DNA of 38,236 nucleotides, taken from contig JBIIIL010000001.1 of the NCBI GenBank assembly GCA_044234825.1, forward strand, positions 1-38,236, written 5' to 3'. Position numbers and translations under genes: made by a program. This DNA is from Phycisphaerales bacterium (GTDB taxonomy: Bacteria; Planctomycetota; Phycisphaerae; Phycisphaerales; SM1A02). Below are positions 9,509 to 25,082 of the stretch, piece after piece (position 1 is the stretch's first letter; every line of letters begins with the position of its first letter). A model generated the notes under the pieces. That model worked only from the letters and a program-made list of their open reading frames with translations, did no database searches and had not been told where the DNA came from.

Positions 9509-10054
9509 TCACGGAGTCGCGGATGCGGGAATCGTCTCCGTGCCGGGCAGCGGCGCTGCCGTCGGCACGGTCGCTCCCTCCTTCGCCGCGATGGTGCCCT
9601 CTCCCGAGAAGAGCGCTTCGGGTCGGCTCAGCCCGATGTCGAAGAGCGTCTCGGCGAGTCGGCCCGGAAGCAGGTAGCGCACGGAGCCATTGACGCGCCA
9701 GCGCGTGGCGACCTCCTCCCCATCGCGCTGCAGCACCGCCGGGATCGAGACCTCGGTACCCGTGCCCGGCGGCAGCGTGCGTGACGCGACCCATTCGCCG
9801 CTGTAGCGCCCCGCATCGGTGTCGAGCGAGTAGTTCCACCGGTCCAGCACGAGGGGATCCTCGGTCGGGTTCTCGAGCCTGATGCGGACCGCGTACTCGT
9901 CCGCGCTCGATCCCTTCACGACACGGTCGACGCCAGTCACCGTGATCTTGGGATCGCCGGCGCACCCTGCGAGCATCGTGGCCTGCAGGGCTGCACCCAG
10001 AATGACGGCAGGCGTACTCGGCGACCGCGTCCGGTCCGCACGTGGAGGACTCAT
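9509..10054 (-). CDS. Lipoprotein with LEA_2/WHy-like beta-sandwich domain
   Basis: Signal peptide ends in the lipobox LAGC. The mature part (ITVTGVDRV...YAVRIRLENPTEDPLVLDRWNYSLDTDAGRY...) resembles LEA-14/WHy domains. TAGAGT lies 6 nt upstream of the ATG. Confidence 0.55.
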   Translation of the reverse strand: MSPPRADRTRSPSTPAVILGAALQATMLAGCAGDPKITVTGVDRVVKGSSADEYAVRIRLENPTEDPLVLDRWNYSLDTDAGRYSGEWVASRTLPPGTGTEVSIPAVLQRDGEEVATRWRVNGSVRYLLPGRLAETLFDIGLSRPEALFSGEGTIAAKEGATVPTAAPLPGTETIPASATP

Positions 10055-10159: not shown

Positions 10160-13100
10160 GTGCGCAAGTTCCTGCCACGACTGCACCGTTGGGCGTGCGT
10201 CACAGCCGCCGCGGCATGCGCATCGTGGCACGCCGCGGCGCAGGAGCGCGCCACAGTGGCGGTCGATGACTCGCCGACGGCAATCCAGATGCTTGCGCAG
10301 GCCGCCGATCAGGCTTCCGCCAACCCCGCAGAGTCCGCCCGCCTGATCAGGCAGGTACTCGCGGAGTTCGGGCGCAAGCTGGTGCCGATGCCCGAGGACG
10401 CAGATCGGTTCAGCGATGCGCAGTCCGTCGCTGAGCGCCTGCTGCGCGGGCACCCCGAGGTCCTGCGCAGGTGGCGAGCGCTCGAGTCTGCGGAGGCCGT
10501 GCGCCAGGTTGCCGAGGGAGAGGCGGCCGGCGCGGCAGCGCAGCGGCTGCTCACGTCGGCTGGGCTCGAGGCCCAGCTGCTGCGTGCGGATGAGGCGCTT
10601 GTCCATGCACGGTTCGGCAAGGCGCTCGCGCTGCTCGATTCGGTCGTCGGTCATCCGGACCTCAGTGGCGACGTGCAGCGGCGCGCATGGAGGATCGAGG
10701 CGCTTGCCGCGTGGGGCGCTGGAGACCGTGCGCGTGCGGAGGCTTCGGCCGCGCGGCTCGATCCGGCCTCTTCGCCGGAGGCGGCAGCGCTGCGTGCGCT
10801 GGTCGCCTCGCCTGCGCCTGCGACGCGGGAGGAGGTCAACGATCCGCTGTCGCCGCAGCCCTTCGGCAACATCAGTCGCGCGCCGATCCGGCTGTGGCAG
10901 GAGCCGCTTGACCAGTCGCTGAAGCGGCGCATCGAGGCAGGTTCGGATGCGAGGCAGCGACCGCCGATGCTTCCCGAGGCCGCGAACGAGCGCGGCAGGT
11001 ACCTCGTCAGCGTGCCTGCGATCTCGAGGGGCCTGGTGATCGTCAACGAGGGCCATCGACTGCAGGCGCTAGGCATCTTCACGCGCGAGCCGCTATGGAG
11101 CCTGCTGATGATGTCGCCTGGTGCCGTGCGCGAAGGGACGGTTGGCGACCTGAGCGTGCCTGTGATCTGCGGCGACAGGGTGCTCGCCGTGAGTGGCCAC
11201 TCCAGCGGTGGCGATCGTGACGGCGGCATCGACCGCGAAGGTGGCGGAAGGCTCATCTGCTGCTCGATCGACGACGGGCGCAGGCTCTGGGAGTTCCAGC
11301 CGCGCTGGCACGCGCGGCTTGGCCTCGACGGCACCTTCATCGTGGGCTCGCCCGCTGTGGTCGAGGACACGGTGGCGCTGCTGCTTCGGCGGGTCTCGCC
11401 CCGGCAGGAGACCATCTCGCTGGCGGTTGGCATCGCGGTGCAGGACGGAACGGTCCAGTGGATCGCGCCCCTGGGATCGACTCCGGGAATCCGGGTGACC
11501 TCTTCTGCGATCAGGCCCTGCGCCACGCCCGTGGCGATGCGCGACTCGTTCGTGTTCCACACGGGCGCGGGAGTGACCGCGCGGCTCTCGTGCGTGGATG
11601 GCCGCGTGATGTGGCTCCGGCGCGACCAGGTTCCGATCCGCGATGCGCGGTGGGACCTCGAGCCTTGGCAGCTGCAGCGGCCGGCCGTGTGCGGCAACCG
11701 CATCATGCTGATCGATCCTGACCAGCAGCATGTGCAGGTCCTCGATGCGTCAGACGGCCGGCAACTGTCGCTGGTGCCCATCGGGAGCGGCACGGCGTGG
11801 CGCGGCACGAGGTGGCTCCTTGCGGGCGCCGATGGCGCGCATGTGCTGGGGATCGGCGAGGAGGTCATCTGCTTCGGCGCGGATGACCTTCGCGCACCCC
11901 GCTGGTCGTGCGGTGCCCAGTCCGGATCGCGATCGCCGGCAGGCGCTGCGCCTGTGATCGGGCGCGTGCAGGTCGGCACGCTCTCGGACGGTCGATGTGC
12001 GGTGGCCATCCCAACCGGAGGCCAGGTTGCGGTGCGCGCCGCTGATGATGGAGCCGAGGTCGCGGTGCTCGAGGTGGGTGCGCACGCGAACCCATCGCTG
12101 CGCGATGGGATCGGCTCCATGGCGACCGATGACGCGCTCGCGATGTTCGTGGACTCGACGCGGACCGAGCAGTTCCTCGCCAAGGCCGCAGCCGATGGCG
12201 ATCCCACCGCCATGGCAGGGCTGCTCGAGCTGGCCATTGCGTCGTCGCGGCCCGATCTCGCCAGGAGCGCGTCGCGATTGGCATCGGAGTGGCTGGCACG
12301 CGATGGCGCGCGTGCCGGCTCAGGTCGCCCGGAGCTCCCGGGCCGAGTCGCGGCGCTGCTCGTCGACGTCGCATGCACCGGCATGCTCGATCCGCAGGAG
12401 TCGAGCGAGCTGTTCGATCGGGTGATCGCCCGCGAAGGCGACCCCGCGCGGCGCGCGCAGGCGCTGCTGATCCAGGGCGACTGGTTCGAGCGCTCGGGAA
12501 GGCTCGCCGCCGCTGCCGCCGTGTGGCGGAGGGTCCTCTCGGATGGAGCGCTTCGCGAGAGCTGGATCGCGCCCGCCGGGGACGATGCGCGTCTGCTTCG
12601 CGCCGGCGTCGCTGCGCGGGACCGCCTCGTCGCGCTCGATCCGGCGAAGGCAGGTGCTGCGGCGCGATCGGCAGGAACGCGGCCGCCGGGCAATGGCGCG
12701 GACACTGATGCGCTGATCCGCTACGCACGCACGTCAGCGTGCTCGCGTGAGGCTGCGGAGGCATGGATCGCCGCCAGCGAGGCCGCTGCCAACGCCGGCG
12801 ACCGCGTGCGTGCTGCCGCCACCGCGGCAGTGGCCGTGAACGAGTCGATTGCGCTCAAGGATCCGGCGCTCCTCGCTGCAGTGCTCGACCGGGCACTCGC
12901 CGTGCTCGAGCGCGAAACGCTCCCGGACACGGCGGCCAGGCTTGTGGACCTCGCGGTCATGTCGGGCATGGATGTGGCGCTGCCCTCCCGAAAGGGGGAG
13001 CCTGCGTCACGGGTGCGGGCGCAGATGGCATCCGCATCCTTGGTGCGGGGTGAGCCGCGCGTGGCGGGATCCCAGGGATCGCGCGCCGTGCGGTTGCTTC

Positions 13101-14356
13101 GCGGCGATCCCACGGCCATGACGGCACGCGCCCGGACGACACGACCGACTGATCGCCTGTGGCTCACTGAGCGCGGGAGCCTTTCCTGCCTGTCGGCGGA
13201 CTCGCTGCAGCAGATCTGGCGGCTGCCTCTTGGAGGGCAGTCGCCCACGATCGTGCAGCACACCGCAGCTGGCGCAGTGCTGTGGGAGGCGATGGATGCC
13301 GACCGTTCCTCGCTGAGCCTGATTGACGACGCAGGCGCACCGAAGTGGTCCATCCCCGACCTGGATGCGCTGCTCGATGGCGAGCTCCATCAGCGTGCCG
13401 CGGGACCCGAGCCGGTGCCGCGGACGGTCCGCGAGAGCACGCTTCGGCTCGAAGGAGTGTTCCCGGGACCCGCAGACGTCGTGCTCATTCGCGCCGATGG
13501 CGCCATCGCGGCGATCGACGCCGCGGAAGGCACACCACGCTGGACGTCGAAGGGCGCGTTTCGGGAGATCATCGGTGCAGACACGGATGACTCGGTCGTG
13601 ATCGTGGCTGGGGTCGGCAGCGGCGGAGGGGGCGAGGCGCAAGCCGTCGCGCTCGACCGCGCCACGGGCCGGCCGGTGGCGGTGCTCGCCGATCGGGCCA
13701 TCGGCCCCATCCGGTGGGTGCGCATCGTGGCGCCCGGGCAGGTTGCCGTCGGTCACGATGCAGGCACCAGCCGGTGGGATCTTGCGGCTGACCATGTGCC
13801 GTGGATCAGGGACGATCCCGCGAGCCTTCGGAGCATCGGCATCGACGGGACCTTCCGCACGTTCCTGCTGAGTTCAGAGGCACGTGCGCCGCAGGCGATC
13901 CGCTGGAGCGATGGGAGCCTCGATCCCGACGCGTTCGCGCTGCTCACGCAGCGCATGCCACGCGCGCCAGAGTGGATCGAGTTCATGCGCAGCGGCGATG
14001 TCATCGTGGCAGGCGACGAGCAGGGCGCGGCGCTGTTCAGCCTCGACGGTGCGCAGGTCGGGGCCAGCGTTTCGATTCCAGGGCGCACCCTGCACGCCGC
14101 ATGCCCGGTCGGCGCCGGCCTTGTGGTGACCGAGCAGGCCGGCCGCGTGGATCCGGCCGTGGGCATGGGAGGCAGGGTCCGCTCCCGCCTCCGGCTCCAG
14201 CTGCTGGGTTGGTCCGATGGGCTCAAGATGCTCGGCGCGCCGATATCGGTCGAGGTGCCCGCGCAGACGTTTGGCACGCCGATTGCCATCGACGGGTGGA
14301 TCGTGGTTCCCGCAGGGAAGGACTCCAGTTATGCAGTGCCAATTCCATCAGGTTGA
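10160..14356 (+). CDS. Giant secreted protein: signal peptide, TPR-like helical regions and two PQQ/BamB-like beta-propellers
   Basis: 1398-aa ORF. The N-terminus MRKFLPRLHRWACVTAAAACASWHAAAQE is signal-like. Blade-like G-x3-W motifs recur (GRRLWEFQP, DGTVQWIAP, DGRVMWLRR, LQQIWRLPL, GAPKWSIPD, GTPRWTSKG), separated by Ala/Leu-rich helical stretches. The GTG start is preceded by TAGGAT-N6. Confidence 0.7.
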   Translation: MRKFLPRLHRWACVTAAAACASWHAAAQERATVAVDDSPTAIQMLAQAADQASANPAESARLIRQVLAEFGRKLVPMPEDADRFSDAQSVAERLLRGHPEVLRRWRALESAEAVRQVAEGEAAGAAAQRLLTSAGLEAQLLRADEALVHARFGKALALLDSVVGHPDLSGDVQRRAWRIEALAAWGAGDRARAEASAARLDPASSPEAAALRALVASPAPATREEVNDPLSPQPFGNISRAPIRLWQEPLDQSLKRRIEAGSDARQRPPMLPEAANERGRYLVSVPAISRGLVIVNEGHRLQALGIFTREPLWSLLMMSPGAVREGTVGDLSVPVICGDRVLAVSGHSSGGDRDGGIDREGGGRLICCSIDDGRRLWEFQPRWHARLGLDGTFIVGSPAVVEDTVALLLRRVSPRQETISLAVGIAVQDGTVQWIAPLGSTPGIRVTSSAIRPCATPVAMRDSFVFHTGAGVTARLSCVDGRVMWLRRDQVPIRDARWDLEPWQLQRPAVCGNRIMLIDPDQQHVQVLDASDGRQLSLVPIGSGTAWRGTRWLLAGADGAHVLGIGEEVICFGADDLRAPRWSCGAQSGSRSPAGAAPVIGRVQVGTLSDGRCAVAIPTGGQVAVRAADDGAEVAVLEVGAHANPSLRDGIGSMATDDALAMFVDSTRTEQFLAKAAADGDPTAMAGLLELAIASSRPDLARSASRLASEWLARDGARAGSGRPELPGRVAALLVDVACTGMLDPQESSELFDRVIAREGDPARRAQALLIQGDWFERSGRLAAAAAVWRRVLSDGALRESWIAPAGDDARLLRAGVAARDRLVALDPAKAGAAARSAGTRPPGNGADTDALIRYARTSACSREAAEAWIAASEAAANAGDRVRAAATAAVAVNESIALKDPALLAAVLDRALAVLERETLPDTAARLVDLAVMSGMDVALPSRKGEPASRVRAQMASASLVRGEPRVAGSQGSRAVRLLRGDPTAMTARARTTRPTDRLWLTERGSLSCLSADSLQQIWRLPLGGQSPTIVQHTAAGAVLWEAMDADRSSLSLIDDAGAPKWSIPDLDALLDGELHQRAAGPEPVPRTVRESTLRLEGVFPGPADVVLIRADGAIAAIDAAEGTPRWTSKGAFREIIGADTDDSVVIVAGVGSGGGGEAQAVALDRATGRPVAVLADRAIGPIRWVRIVAPGQVAVGHDAGTSRWDLAADHVPWIRDDPASLRSIGIDGTFRTFLLSSEARAPQAIRWSDGSLDPDAFALLTQRMPRAPEWIEFMRSGDVIVAGDEQGAALFSLDGAQVGASVSIPGRTLHAACPVGAGLVVTEQAGRVDPAVGMGGRVRSRLRLQLLGWSDGLKMLGAPISVEVPAQTFGTPIAIDGWIVVPAGKDSSYAVPIPSG

Positions 14357-14381
14357 CATTCTTGCCCTTCGCGGACATTCT
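14353..14381 (+). promoter_or_regulatory. Sigma-70-like promoter TTGACA-N17-CATTCT for the acidic-protein gene
   Basis: A perfect -35 TTGACA (14353-14358) overlaps the stop codon of the giant gene. After a 17-nt spacer comes CATTCT (14376-14381), and the ATG at 14394 follows 12 nt later with no SD. Confidence 0.45.
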
Positions 14382-14393
14382 CTCGCCGTCCCC

Positions 14394-14846
14394 ATGACGA
14401 ACCGACTCCTTCAGGATCCCTCCGAGGCCACGCGTTGGCTCATCCCCGGCACCCTTCCGCCCGTCTCGGCATACGACGACGAGGATGAGGACGAGGTCGA
14501 CTTCGACGACGAGGGGGATGACTTCGACGACGAGGAGTTCGCTGACGAGGATGGCTTTGAGGCTGACGAGGAGCGCGAGGGCACCTTCGAGCAGGACTCC
14601 GAAGAGGAGGAGGAAGAGGACGACTTCGACGACTTCGATGACCTTGATGAGGACGAGGAGGAGGACGACGAAGAGGAAGAGGAAGAGGAAGAGGAAGAAG
14701 AGGAGGAAGAGGAAGAGGGCGAGGAGGAGGACGACGACGATGATGATGAGGAAGACGACGAGGACGACGAGGACGATGACTCGTCAGACGACTTCGACGA
14801 CGACGATGAGGAAGACGAAGAAGACGACGAGGACGACGAGGACTAG
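14394..14846 (+). CDS. Hyper-acidic poly-Asp/Glu protein (150 aa; 27-aa neutral N-terminus, then about 100 D/E in 123 residues)
   Basis: ORF with high G/C at third positions in its 5' half, in the acidic frame. It has its own TTGACA-N17-CATTCT promoter-like element ending 12 nt before the ATG. The sequence runs ...SAYDDEDEDEVDFDDEGDDFDDEEF...E16 GEEEDDDDDD.... An in-frame ATG at 14331 is an alternative start. Confidence 0.6.
   Translation: MTNRLLQDPSEATRWLIPGTLPPVSAYDDEDEDEVDFDDEGDDFDDEEFADEDGFEADEEREGTFEQDSEEEEEEDDFDDFDDLDEDEEEDDEEEEEEEEEEEEEEEEGEEEDDDDDDEEDDEDDEDDDSSDDFDDDDEEDEEDDEDDED
14670..14719 (+). repeat. 50-nt uninterrupted polypurine (GAA/GAG)n tract
   Basis: Read base by base: the last pyrimidine before the tract is at 14669 and the next is at 14720. 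The tract encodes 16 consecutive Glu. Flanking DNA from about 14470 to 14843 is also strongly purine-skewed. Confidence 0.95.
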
Positions 14847-24111: not shown

Positions 24112-25082
24112 GGACGACCTCCGCCGCGACCGCCCATGCCGCCGCGTCCGCCGCGACCGCCCATGCCGCCGCCGCCACCACCGCTCCCGAATCCGCGATC
24201 TCCGGTGAATCCCGCACCAGTGCCACCGGTTGCTCCCACGCCTCCGGGCGGGCCGAGCGTGCCCTGACCCGCGCCAGCACCGTCGGGTCCGCCAGCGCCT
24301 CCGCCACCGCCACCGCCACCGACTGGCGCCCCTCCCGGCCCTCCGGCAAGCCCTCCATCGGCGGCACCGGACGGCTGGGCGGATGGCTCCACCGGCACAT
24401 AGGGAGGCGGCACGCGATCGAGCGGCACAATGGTCGACAGGCTCAGCAGGTCGCGGGGATCCTCGAAGGGATCCTCGCCGTCAGGGCGACCAGTGCCGCT
24501 GATCGTGACGCGTACTGCCCATGGCATCCCTTCGATGTCGGAGTCCCACTCGTCCTGCCACGTCAAGCCGTCGTAGGCCTCGAGCTTGAGGCCGATGATG
24601 CCGGACATCATGGGTTCAGCCGTGCCTCCGCCGCGGTCGACGTCATCGGGCACCGCGTCGGTGCGCATCCAGAGCGCTGACCCGAGATCGTCCTCCTCGA
24701 CGCGGAGGTGAGTCTCCCACTCCTGGCCATCGCCGCTGTAGGTGCGCTCGCGCACGGGCTTGACCTTCGAGTTGAAGACAAGGAGCTCGTCGCGGTCGAG
24801 GTCGCCTACCGGCGCGCTGACCGTGTCGTCGAGGATCAGCAGCCGCGAGTCGAAGAGGTCGTCGCTGCGGATGGCGCCCTGAATCTCGCGGCGGATGCGG
24901 TCGAGCGCCATCGAAGTGCGCAGGTGCGACTCGAGGCGCACGCGCGACACGGTGCGTGTGCGCGCGAGCTGCGAGAGGCTGGCGCCGATCGCGCCGACGA
25001 CGATGGCGGCAACGAGGCCGGCGACCACAAGCTCCGCGAGCGTGAACCCGCGGCGCAGCCTGATGCGCGGACTACGGCGCAC
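24108..25082 (-). CDS. gspJ: GspJ-like minor pseudopilin with 100-aa Gly/RGG-rich C-terminal extension
   Basis: Prepilin-type N-terminus RRG|FTLAELVVAGLVAAIVVG. The core ends with the GspJ-like PWAVRVTISG. No ATG is available, so the start is set at GTG 25082 (TTG 25094 is an alternative). The stop overlaps the gspK ATG (ATGA). Confidence 0.7.
   Translation of the reverse strand: MRRSPRIRLRRGFTLAELVVAGLVAAIVVGAIGASLSQLARTRTVSRVRLESHLRTSMALDRIRREIQGAIRSDDLFDSRLLILDDTVSAPVGDLDRDELLVFNSKVKPVRERTYSGDGQEWETHLRVEEDDLGSALWMRTDAVPDDVDRGGGTAEPMMSGIIGLKLEAYDGLTWQDEWDSDIEGMPWAVRVTISGTGRPDGEDPFEDPRDLLSLSTIVPLDRVPPPYVPVEPSAQPSGAADGGLAGGPGGAPVGGGGGGGGAGGPDGAGAGQGTLGPPGGVGATGGTGAGFTGDRGFGSGGGGGGMGGRGGRGGMGGRGGGRP
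24121..24174 (-). repeat. 27-bp tandem direct repeat x2 inside the gspJ-like 3' end
   Basis: ccgccgcgaccgcccatgccgccgcgt followed by ccgccgcgaccgcccatgccgccgccg (25/27 identical). On the coding strand this encodes the GGMGGRGGR / GGMGGRGGG repeat. Confidence 0.9.

What the first reader, a model, noticed from the sequence alone, without database searches (positions are those of the whole stretch)
14394..14846. Stand-alone hyper-acidic poly-D/E protein with acidic-aromatic spacing and its own promoter
The protein is 150 aa. The first 27 residues are ordinary (MTNRLLQDPSEATRWLIPGTLPPVSAY). About 100 of the remaining 123 residues are Asp/Glu, including a run of 16 Glu. They are punctuated almost only by Phe/Leu/Gly (DFDDEGDDFDDEEF, DDFDDFDDLDED, DDFDDDD). 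There is no signal peptide.

The third-codon positions in the 5' half are G/C-rich in this frame, which supports translation. The gene has a perfect TTGACA -35 overlapping the upstream stop.

Unlike the rest of the window, it uses many GAA/GAT codons and is visibly less GC-rich.

Such composition is known from eukaryotic histone chaperones and prothymosin-like proteins, and from phage DNA-mimic proteins. Here the protein could be:
- a DNA or polyphosphate mimic
- a divalent-cation buffer
- a chaperone or counter-ion for very basic partners

The neighbouring T2SS carries RGG tails, and top6B has a basic tail. That connection is pure speculation. I cannot assign the protein to any family.
Basis: partly seen in the sequence, partly recalled or inferred. 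Interest (0 to 1): 0.7.

Follow-up and report, generated by a model that had tools for sequence, protein, structure and literature searches.

The report
Conserved hyper-acidic disordered protein, Phycisphaerales
This is a real, conserved bacterial gene for a 150-residue, structure-less protein with about 100 negative charges and a strongly conserved acidic-phenylalanine motif; it has its own promoter, belongs to no catalogued family, always sits beside a type II secretion gene cluster, and its function is still unknown.

Summary
ORF 14394-14846(+) encodes 150 aa with 103 Asp/Glu, net charge -100, a run of 16 Glu and 8 Phe.

It is a genuine gene. By synteny I recovered hyper-acidic ORFs in nine related Planctomycetota (mostly Phycisphaerales) loci. 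They always lie between a 1400-aa BamB-like exported protein and a convergent lipoprotein-secretin operon.

Codons 28-66 (YDDEDEDEVDFDDEGDDFDDEEFADEDGFEADEEREGTFE) have pN/pS 0.08 at near-saturated synonymous divergence. The flanking giant gene has 0.33. The same core is recognisable where that giant gene is only ~35% identical.

The rest of the tail is an unalignable GAG/GAA/GAC slippage array. Even so, every full-length ortholog keeps 91-107 acidic residues (net -84 to -104).

TTGACA-N17-nATnnT at the upstream stop codon is conserved in the close relatives and the ~35% clade. It is the only such site in 38 kb.

AlphaFold finds no structure. Pfam, NCBIfam, PHROGs, PADLOC, PDB and Rfam give nothing. 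One lineage keeps the cluster but lacks the gene.

Best reading: a cytoplasmic polyanion that docks through the Phe motif and acts by charge, as a competitor or chaperone. The partner is unknown. No basic partner is encoded nearby. The phage DNA-mimic reading is not supported.

The parts
14353..14358 (+). -35-like hexamer TTGACA, overlapping the TGA stop (14354-14356) of the upstream giant gene
   Evidence: Invariant in the window and L001-L005. Also present at the equivalent place in distant L006/L007. TTGACA occurs only once per strand in 38 kb (alignment).
14376..14381 (+). -10-like hexamer CATTCT, 17 nt after the -35. Its last base is 12 nt from the ATG, which implies a very short or near-leaderless 5'UTR (inference).
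   Evidence: CAT[T/C/G]CT is conserved with A2/T3/T6 invariant, while the spacer sequence differs in L005. L006/L007 have GATATT at the same 17-nt spacing. The consensus scanner did not call it.
14394..14846 (+). Coding sequence of the 150-aa hyper-acidic protein. The stop TAG is at 14844-14846.
   Evidence: An in-frame upstream ATG at 14331 is an alternative start. It is disfavoured because in L007 the -35 element itself contains the in-frame stop.
14394..14474 (+). Non-acidic N-terminal 27 codons. Length is conserved but sequence is only weakly constrained; Trp15 and Pro18 are invariant among close relatives.
   Evidence: pN/pS 0.62; alignment A3. Non-acidic leaders of 26-86 aa are present in all orthologs.
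14475..14591 (+). Conserved acidic-aromatic core, codons 28-66: DDEDEDEVDFDDEGDDFDDEEFADEDGFEADEEREGTFE, preceded by the invariant Tyr27
   Evidence: pN/pS 0.078 with pS 0.66. It is 71-79% identical across the first 72 residues to relatives whose giant gene is about 72% identical. It is recognisable in L006/L007. A permutation test gave 3 of 2000 shuffles reaching the observed match.
14619..14654 (+). Second acidic-aromatic motif DDFDDFDDLDED (residues 76-87)
   Evidence: Conserved in the window and L002-L005 as DDFD[DE]F[DG]DLDE. TRF reports a 9-nt GACGACTTC repeat here.
14655..14843 (+). Variable poly-Glu/Asp tail (residues 88-150). It includes the 16-Glu run and a 50-nt homopurine run at 14670-14719.
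   Evidence: Imperfect GAG/GAGGAA/GAC arrays. The tail is unalignable between orthologs, yet total D+E is kept at 91-107. Homopurine run.
14843..14846 (.). 4-bp convergent stop-codon overlap (CTAG) with the 421-aa lipoprotein gene. There is no room for a terminator.
   Evidence: The same overlap occurs in L002-L005. The gap is 17-93 nt in L007-L009. No terminator was found.
10160..14356 (+). Context: 1398-aa exported BamB/PQQ-repeat protein, the invariant upstream neighbour
   Evidence: Pfam PQQ_2. Homologs range from 100% down to 26% identity. Synteny.
14843..19110 (-). Context: the convergent 421-aa lipoprotein-like gene (14843-16108) and the GspD secretin (16105-19110), the invariant downstream neighbours. 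The rest of the T2SS operon follows.
   Evidence: Synteny.

Best explanation
Window 14394-14846 is a real protein-coding gene, transcribed on its own from a sigma-70-like promoter that overlaps the stop codon of the upstream gene.

Its product is a cytoplasmic, intrinsically disordered polyanion with three parts:
1. A roughly 27-residue non-acidic leader that is only loosely constrained.
2. A strongly constrained acidic-aromatic segment, Y-DDEDE-x3-DF-x6-F-DDEEF-x-DEDGF-x-DE.
3. A poly-Asp/Glu tail with a free sequence that evolves by trinucleotide slippage. Its total charge is held near -90 to -100.

Most likely mechanism (inferred, not shown): the Phe-in-acid segment is a docking motif for a basic or hydrophobic groove on a specific partner. 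The tail then works through charge alone. It could act as a nucleic-acid- or polyphosphate-like competitor that keeps a basic surface unoccupied. It could also act as an electrostatic chaperone or solubiliser, in the manner of prothymosin-alpha, poly-D/E chaperones and the acidic tail of RNA polymerase delta.

The partner is unknown. Conserved position inside a type II secretion / giant beta-propeller gene cluster suggests, but does not show, that the function is tied to that apparatus.

The non-acidic leader and the periodic bulky Phe/Leu may also be what makes such a sequence translatable at all.

Shown: a real gene, translated in this frame; conservation; the constraint pattern; conserved charge; a footprinted promoter; no predicted fold.
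Inferred: docking, electrostatic action, the link to secretion, and the translatability role.
For: Coding and under selection:
- Core codons 28-66 have pN/pS 0.078 at pS 0.66. The giant gene has 0.33 and the leader 0.62.
- Changes between the window and L001 in the core are 8 synonymous against 3 non-synonymous.

Conservation:
- Hyper-acidic ORFs, open in frame at the same position, occur in L002, L003, L004, L005, L006/L007, L008/L009 and L010.
- Two more loci have a 146-aa and a 186-aa ORF there, but no DNA was available.
- The core shared with L007 exceeds composition-matched shuffles: 3 of 2000 shuffles reached the observed match, and the match falls at the same offset from the conserved Tyr.
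- L007 builds its tail from 53 consecutive Asp instead of Glu. Selection therefore acts on the protein's charge, not on a DNA motif.

Charge: D+E is 91-107 and net charge -84 to -104 in eight full-length orthologs whose tails cannot be aligned.

Promoter:
- TTGACA-N17-CATnCT is conserved while the spacer changes in L005.
- TTGACA-N17-GATATT occurs in L006/L007.
- It is the only TTGACA-N16-18-nAnnnT site in the window.
- In L007 the -35 element contains the in-frame stop, so it must lie outside the ORF.

Disorder: AlphaFold2 gives pLDDT 53, pTM 0.12 and no secondary structure.

Tail dynamics: imperfect GAG/GAGGAA/GAC arrays.

Translatability: in E. coli, about 30 preceding residues and bulky side chains counteract the ribosome destabilisation caused by D/E runs (paper 10.1101/2021.02.02.429294). 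Every ortholog has a non-acidic leader of at least 26 aa.
Against: - There is no expression data of any kind.
- No partner was identified, and no strongly basic protein is encoded in the conserved block.
- The gene has its own promoter and is not co-transcribed with either neighbour, so synteny is only weak evidence of a shared function.
- One lineage (L011) keeps the giant gene, the lipoprotein and the secretin but has no acidic ORF. The gene is therefore dispensable for that cluster.
- The most distant positional equivalents (L008-L010) share only composition, not demonstrable sequence homology (119 of 500 shuffles matched).
- The AlphaFold run used a single sequence.
- A conserved charge of about -100 fits a cation-buffer role equally well.
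Confidence: 0.45

Rival explanations
1. Cation or polyamine buffer. The protein is a soluble store or counter-ion for Mg2+, Ca2+ or polyamines, analogous to calsequestrin tails or to polyphosphate. Only total charge matters for this role.
For: The count of acidic residues is conserved (91-107) while Asp and Glu are freely exchanged. ppk1 lies two genes upstream in the window clade and in L005-L007.
Against: The exact Phe/Gly positions in the core are under far stronger constraint than a buffer needs (pN/pS 0.08). ppk1 adjacency is lost in L008-L011 and in the P0043 locus, while the acidic ORF stays in all of these except L011. A single 150-aa protein has little buffering capacity unless it is very abundant.
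Confidence: 0.15
2. Translation-level sensor. The long D/E tract is a 'risky' sequence whose complete translation depends on Mg2+ and ribosome stability (intrinsic ribosome destabilisation, as in MgtL). Aborted or completed translation then controls how far transcription reads, antisense, into the convergent T2SS operon. The peptide itself is secondary.
For: D/E runs of 20-53 residues. The IRD mechanism and its use as an Mg2+ sensor are documented in E. coli and Salmonella. The stop codons overlap convergently or lie 17-93 nt apart, with no terminator.
Against: There is no regulated gene downstream on the same strand. A non-acidic leader of at least 26 aa is just what suppresses IRD. The invariant DEDGF/DEEF motif and the conserved total charge point to selection on the finished protein.
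Confidence: 0.1
3. DNA-mimic anti-restriction or anti-defence protein (Ocr/ArdA-like), acquired from a mobile element.
For: Extreme negative charge. Locally lower GC.
Against: The position is conserved in the core chromosome across genomes whose flanking gene is only 27-73% identical. There are no mobile-element genes nearby. There are no PHROGs, PADLOC or Pfam hits. No fold is predicted, whereas known mimics are folded. The GC drop follows from GAN codons.
Confidence: 0.04
4. Not a functional protein. The tract is a purine-rich microsatellite or H-DNA-forming spacer between convergent transcription units, and it happens to be open in frame.
For: Five of six frames are open by construction. 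There is a 50-nt homopurine run. The tract has a slippage-array structure.
Against: The synonymous-biased substitution pattern is specific to this frame. The ATG and the stop position are conserved. The protein motif is kept in L006/L007 with different DNA. L007's poly-Asp tract is not homopurine.
Confidence: 0.03

Closest known systems
Prothymosin-alpha (vertebrate; comparison from my own knowledge, since the literature tool was down)
   Same: A small (~110 aa), stand-alone, fully disordered protein that is roughly half Asp/Glu. It acts through charge on a very basic partner (linker histone H1).
   Different: It is eukaryotic and nuclear with an NLS, and has no Phe-in-acid motif. No Pfam model matched here. 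The window protein is far more acidic (69% D/E, net -100).
Poly-D/E 'protein-folding enabler' class (DAXX, ANP32, SET) and Hero proteins (own knowledge)
   Same: Long continuous D/E tracts, disordered and heat-stable in type, proposed to act as electrostatic chaperones or anti-aggregation shields.
   Different: Those tracts are usually parts of larger folded eukaryotic proteins. Here the tract is essentially the whole protein and the host is a bacterium. Chaperone activity was not tested.
Acidic C-terminal tail of RNA polymerase delta subunit (RpoE) of Firmicutes (own knowledge)
   Same: A bacterial polyanionic disordered tail of about 70-100 residues, thought to mimic nucleic acid and displace it from a basic channel.
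   Different: Delta has a folded HARE-HTH N-terminal domain. The window protein has only a 27-aa leader and no domain hit. The phylum and gene context also differ.
Phage and plasmid DNA mimics Ocr and ArdA (own knowledge)
   Same: A highly negative surface and competition with DNA.
   Different: They are folded, with charges placed to imitate B-DNA, and are encoded on mobile elements. Here no fold is predicted, there is no PHROGs or Pfam match, and the locus is core chromosomal.
SSB C-terminal acidic tip (DDDIPF) and similar acidic-aromatic docking motifs (own knowledge)
   Same: Phe embedded in Asp/Glu, at the end of or within a disordered region, used as a short linear motif to dock on partner proteins.
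   Different: The SSB tip is a single C-terminal hexapeptide on a DNA-binding protein. Here four or five Phe are spaced 5-10 residues apart in an internal 39-residue segment.
MgtL-type intrinsic-ribosome-destabilisation peptides (paper 10.1101/2021.02.02.429294)
   Same: Runs of D/E that challenge the translating ribosome. Synthesis may be sensitive to Mg2+.
   Different: MgtL is a very short leader ORF upstream of the gene it regulates, with D/E/P at the extreme N-terminus. Here a 27-aa leader precedes the tract and no gene follows on the same strand.

Membership tests
Any catalogued protein family (Pfam-A, NCBIfam) | Match to a curated family HMM | tested here: not met
   The window protein has 0 families at E<=0.01. 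Five orthologs have none at E<=1 apart from a chance Tfb4 hit at E=0.54. These libraries should include the models for prothymosin, nucleoplasmin, NAP, calsequestrin, MsyB, Ocr and ArdA (from my own knowledge of Pfam's content).
Phage/plasmid DNA-mimic proteins (Ocr, ArdA and the like) | A folded scaffold that displays the charges | tested here: not met
   AlphaFold2 gives pLDDT 53, pTM 0.12 and no secondary structure (single-sequence run). No PDB sequence match at E<=10.
Phage/plasmid DNA-mimic proteins (Ocr, ArdA and the like) | Encoded on a phage, plasmid or other mobile element, or matches a viral protein family | tested here: not met
   No PHROGs hit and no PADLOC hit. Chromosomal synteny is conserved across 27-73% flank identity.
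Phage/plasmid DNA-mimic proteins (Ocr, ArdA and the like) | Competes with DNA for a DNA-binding enzyme | not testable with these tools
   This needs biochemistry.
RNA polymerase delta subunit (RpoE) | N-terminal HARE-HTH domain preceding the acidic tail | tested here: not met
   Only 27 non-acidic residues precede the tract, and there is no domain hit.
Poly-D/E disordered polyanions (functional class: prothymosin, DAXX-type, Hero-type) | A long, nearly continuous D/E tract with intrinsic disorder | tested here: met
   69% D/E, a longest uninterrupted D/E run of 24, net charge -100, and no predicted structure.
Poly-D/E disordered polyanions (functional class: prothymosin, DAXX-type, Hero-type) | Binds basic clients, or has chaperone or anti-aggregation activity | not testable with these tools
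   No partner is encoded nearby. This needs pull-downs and aggregation assays.
MgtL-type IRD leader peptide | D/E(P)-rich run able to destabilise the ribosome | tested here: met
   Runs of 16 Glu and 24 D/E. The criterion of about 10 consecutive D/E comes.
MgtL-type IRD leader peptide | A short ORF at the 5' end of, and on the same strand as, the gene it regulates, with the acidic run at the extreme N-terminus | tested here: not met
   The next gene is convergent. The tract starts at residue 28.
Type II secretion system component | Match to a Gsp/Pil family model | tested here: not met
   No hit, whereas the neighbours match GspD, M, K, J, F and E.
Type II secretion system component | Always present with the cluster | tested here: not met
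   L011 keeps the giant gene, the lipoprotein, the secretin and GspE/F but has no acidic ORF.

The most novel reading that the evidence does not exclude
Phycisphaerales carry a dedicated bacterial counterpart of prothymosin. It is a free-standing, fully disordered polyanion whose charge is held at about 100 negative charges as a functional quantity, a 'charge ruler' roughly equivalent to 50 bp of DNA or a 100-mer of polyphosphate. It docks through a previously undescribed acidic-Phe linear motif onto a cytoplasmic component of the secretion and envelope machinery. Its synthesis is itself gated by ribosome stability and Mg2+.
Probability: 0.15. Interest if true: 0.8.

Novelty: new variant of a known kind. 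Interest (0 to 1): 0.55.

Why it matters
To my knowledge, stand-alone proteins that are about 70% Asp/Glu are essentially uncharacterised in bacteria. This one is not compositional noise. Its core is under stronger purifying selection than its large neighbour, and it keeps about 100 acidic residues while its sequence drifts freely. Selection on charge quantity with sequence left free is a clear and testable case.

If a partner is found, the result would extend the eukaryotic idea of polyanionic disordered regulators or chaperones to bacteria. It would also define a new acidic-aromatic docking motif.

The protein is also a natural extreme test case for how ribosomes manage to translate more than 100 consecutive acidic codons.

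There is a methodological lesson. Both sequence-similarity searches missed every ortholog, and only synteny found them. Families of this type are therefore probably undercounted in databases.

Tried and rejected
1. Direct homology searches found no true ortholog.
- The word-indexed search with the full protein was saturated by 8000 poly-D/E candidates and returned only P0001.
- A search with the core alignment returned nothing.
- An exhaustive HMMER search with P0001 hit only its unrelated C-terminal half.
- Two metagenome scans returned nothing.
- Orthologs were found only through the giant neighbour gene.

2. I first took P0001's non-acidic C-terminal domain to be the 'true' C-terminus of the family. 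I rejected that. It belongs to another family (P0002-P0014), and the junction lies in a GAG repeat on a 932-bp contig. The contig is probably an assembly chimera or a recombinant.

3. Basic partner in cis: none in the conserved block. The basic N-terminus of the GspE ORF lies in a stretch that overlaps the preceding ORF, so it is probably not translated.

4. Overlapping polycationic ORF in the +1 frame (14485-14898): its ATG is lost in L004 and L005, and its sequence changes with every synonymous change of the main frame. It is a by-product of the repeat.

5. Frameshift origin of the (AKK)7 block in L007: rejected, because the other frames carry stops.

6. Upstream start at 14331, as chosen by gene callers on P0001 and L005.
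- A period-3 pattern of variable sites (6 of 8, p=0.02) disappears when L005 is added.
- In L007 the -35 element holds the in-frame stop.
- 14394 is favoured; 14331 is not excluded.

7. Rfam: only a sub-threshold chance hit to sR53.

8. AlphaFold of the 421-aa lipoprotein gave pLDDT 38.5, too poor for a fold search, so none was run.

9. Literature searches and look-ups failed from then on. Only the IRD papers could be consulted. All other comparisons rest on my own knowledge, and I could not check whether this family has been described.
Full report
**1. What is there**

Window 14394-14846(+) is an ATG-to-TAG ORF of 150 codons.
- The product starts MTNRLLQDPSEATRWLIPGTLPPVSAY. After that, 101 of 123 residues are Asp/Glu.
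- In total it has 51 D, 52 E and 3 K/R, giving net charge -100. The longest Glu run is 16 and the longest D/E run is 24. There are 8 Phe.
- It is the only stretch with at least 18 D/E in 30 residues, in any frame of the 38-kb window.
- The window is 69% GC, and the ORF is 59.6% GC.
- The GC drop is largely forced, because GAN codons cannot exceed 67% GC.
- Glu codons do use GAA five times more often than 13 other genes (27% against 5.5%). Asp codons do not over-use GAT (22% against 29%).
- The tail is a set of imperfect GAG, GAGGAA and GAC arrays.

**2. Is it a gene?**

A (GAN)n tract is open in five of six frames by construction, so openness proves nothing. The evidence comes from relatives.
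- Three Planctomycetota MAGs carry a giant upstream gene that is 71-73% identical. Two are labelled Phycisphaerales and one Isosphaeraceae.
- All three hold an open, in-frame, 144-156-aa acidic ORF at the same place. It ends ...DDED and has the same 4-bp convergent stop overlap.
- Nei-Gojobori counts over the window and L002-L004:

| Region | pN/pS | Note |
|---|---|---|
| Core, codons 28-66 | 0.078 | pS = 0.66, near saturation |
| N-terminal leader, codons 2-27 | 0.62 | loosely constrained |
| Last 449 codons of the giant gene | 0.33 | neighbour for comparison |

The acidic-aromatic core is therefore translated in this frame, and it is more constrained than its neighbour.

**3. How far does it extend?**

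Sequence searches failed.
- The word-indexed search was saturated by poly-D/E candidates.
- The core profile found nothing.
- Two metagenome scans found nothing.

I therefore searched with the giant gene and pulled contigs at graded distances.

| Locus | Giant-gene identity | What occupies the position |
|---|---|---|
| L005 | 64% | 151-aa ortholog with the same core |
| L006, L007 | 34-36% | ORF keeps YDEDEEKDFELEEDDDFGDEEFGDEDGFGEDED |
| L008, L009, L010 | 27-29% | Hyper-acidic, Phe/Leu-punctuated ORFs; similarity is compositional only (119 of 500 shuffles) |
| Two loci without DNA | 28%, 34% | Called ORFs of 146 and 186 aa |
| L011 | 28% over half the protein | No acidic ORF; giant gene, lipoprotein, secretin and GspE/F retained |

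- The L007 core match exceeds composition-preserving shuffles. Only 3 of 2000 reached the observed match, which falls at the same offset from the conserved Tyr.
- L007's tail is 53 consecutive Asp followed by (AKK)7.
- The gene is therefore widespread in this lineage but dispensable for the cluster.

**4. A conserved quantity**

The eight full-length orthologs have tails that cannot be aligned, and their Asp:Glu ratios range from 1:1 to 3:1. Yet D+E is 91-107 and net charge is -84 to -104. Selection seems to act on the amount of charge rather than on the sequence.

**5. Promoter and start**
- TTGACA (14353-14358) overlaps the giant gene's TGA. CATTCT follows after 17 nt, and the ATG lies 12 nt beyond that.
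- The pair is conserved in the window and L001-L005. In L005 the spacer has changed but the hexamers have not.
- L006 and L007 have TTGACA-N17-GATATT at the same place, followed by a GAGGAG Shine-Dalgarno-like sequence.
- It is the only TTGACA-N16-18-nAnnnT site in the window.
- The consensus scanner did not call it, because the -10 matches only 3 of 6 positions.
- I infer an independent transcript that is nearly leaderless in the window clade.
- Gene callers elsewhere chose an upstream in-frame ATG, equivalent to window 14331. A period-3 pattern of variable sites (6 of 8, p=0.02) hinted at this, but it vanishes when L005 is included.
- In L007 the -35 hexamer itself supplies the in-frame stop.
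- I favour 14394 as the start, but 14331 is not excluded.

**6. Structure and family**
- AlphaFold2 (single sequence) gives pLDDT 53, pTM 0.12 and no secondary structure.
- There is no match in Pfam or NCBIfam, PHROGs, PADLOC or PDB sequences.
- Rfam gives only a sub-threshold chance hit.

**7. Context**

The invariant block has five parts:
- a divergent lipoprotein of about 160 aa (9509-10054, LAGC lipobox);
- the exported 1398-aa BamB/PQQ-repeat protein;
- the acidic ORF;
- a convergent lipoprotein of about 400 aa;
- the GspD secretin.

The rest of a T2SS operon (GspM, K, J, F, E) follows in the window. In the more distant genomes GspE/F sit on the other side of the block.

ppk1 is two genes upstream only in the window clade and in the clade with a ~35% identical giant gene. 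None of these neighbours is strongly basic.

**8. A misleading relative**

The only database hit, P0001, is a 210-aa protein on a 932-bp metagenome contig.
- It shares the N-terminus and the first acidic segment at about 88% nucleotide identity. It then continues into a Pro-rich linker and a non-acidic domain.
- That half belongs to an unrelated family, P0002-P0014.
- The junction lies in a GAG repeat that both families contain.
- I treat the contig as a probable assembly chimera or recombinant and draw nothing from its C-terminus.

**9. Interpretation**

Shown:
- a real, conserved, independently promoted gene;
- a disordered product;
- a constrained Phe-in-acid core;
- a sequence-free tail of conserved charge.

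Inferred:
- The core is a docking motif.
- The tail acts electrostatically on a basic partner, as a competitor for nucleic-acid or polyP sites or as a chaperone. This would resemble prothymosin-alpha, poly-D/E chaperones and the RNAP delta tail (comparisons from my own knowledge).
- The non-acidic leader of at least 26 aa and the periodic bulky residues match what counteracts D/E-induced ribosome destabilisation in E. coli. This may explain why the leader's length is conserved but its sequence is not.

Rivals:
- A cation buffer fits the conserved charge but not the constrained motif.
- An IRD-based regulator of convergent transcription fits the D/E runs and the missing terminator. It does not fit the leader or the conserved motif.
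- The DNA-mimic-from-a-mobile-element and non-coding-spacer readings are disfavoured by context and by selection.

**10. Limits**
- There is no expression data and no identified partner.
- The AlphaFold runs used single sequences.
- The literature tool failed for all but one query, so I could not check whether this family has been described. To my knowledge it has not.

Noticed in passing
L001:1-932 (P0001); junction near L001:400-410, equivalent to window ~14615: The only database 'homolog' is a fusion. It joins the acidic ORF's 5' part to the C-terminal half of an unrelated family (P0002-P0014: a Cys-rich N-domain, an Ala/Pro/Glu linker, and an IGxxGDARD...PGNEIxSLxEVxW C-domain). The join lies inside a GAG repeat. 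It is probably a metagenome assembly chimera. That other family has no Pfam match either.
   Followed up: partly
window 9509-10054(-), 10160-14356(+), 14843-16108(-): A conserved trio of uncharacterised envelope proteins is embedded in the T2SS cluster in all relatives. They are a ~160-aa lipoprotein (LAGC lipobox), a 1398-aa signal-peptide BamB/PQQ-repeat protein, and a ~400-aa mostly-beta lipoprotein directly downstream of the secretin. Only the giant protein has a Pfam hit. The AlphaFold model of the 421-aa protein was too poor to use (pLDDT 38.5).
   Followed up: partly
L007:9257-9850: This distant ortholog has 53 consecutive Asp followed immediately by (AKK)7 and a short acidic end. It is a block polyampholyte. 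The basic block is not a frameshifted acidic repeat, because the other frames contain stops.
   Followed up: yes
L011:9215-9230: One lineage has the giant gene followed 15 nt later by the convergent lipoprotein gene, with no acidic ORF anywhere in 14 kb. This natural loss could be exploited for phylogenetic profiling.
   Followed up: partly
window 14485-14898(+), frame +1 of the acidic ORF: The overlapping frame encodes a 137-aa Lys/Arg/Thr-rich polycation (Glu codons read as Arg/Lys, Asp codons as Thr/Met). A +1 slip in the repeat would invert the charge. The ATG is lost in L004 and L005, so it is not a conserved gene.
   Followed up: yes
window 14670-14719: A 50-nt uninterrupted homopurine run inside the poly-Glu codons lies between convergent transcription units. 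It could form triplex (H-) DNA. Orthologs with poly-Asp tails lack such a run.
   Followed up: no
window 24073-24171(-): ARAGORN calls a 99-nt tRNA-Pro(GGG) that straddles the junction of the GspK and GspJ ORFs inside the T2SS operon. The length and position suggest a false positive.
   Followed up: no
window 33843-37235(+): Topoisomerase VI subunits B and A (Pfam Topo-VIb_trans, TP6A_N, Toprim) are encoded in tandem in this bacterial window, next to ndk and a basic 351-aa sigma-70-family protein (pI 9.9).
   Followed up: no
Both the word-indexed and the exhaustive HMMER searches missed every true ortholog of this low-complexity protein, probably through candidate saturation and compositional filtering. 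Only synteny recovered them. Hyper-acidic families are probably under-reported in protein databases.
   Followed up: partly
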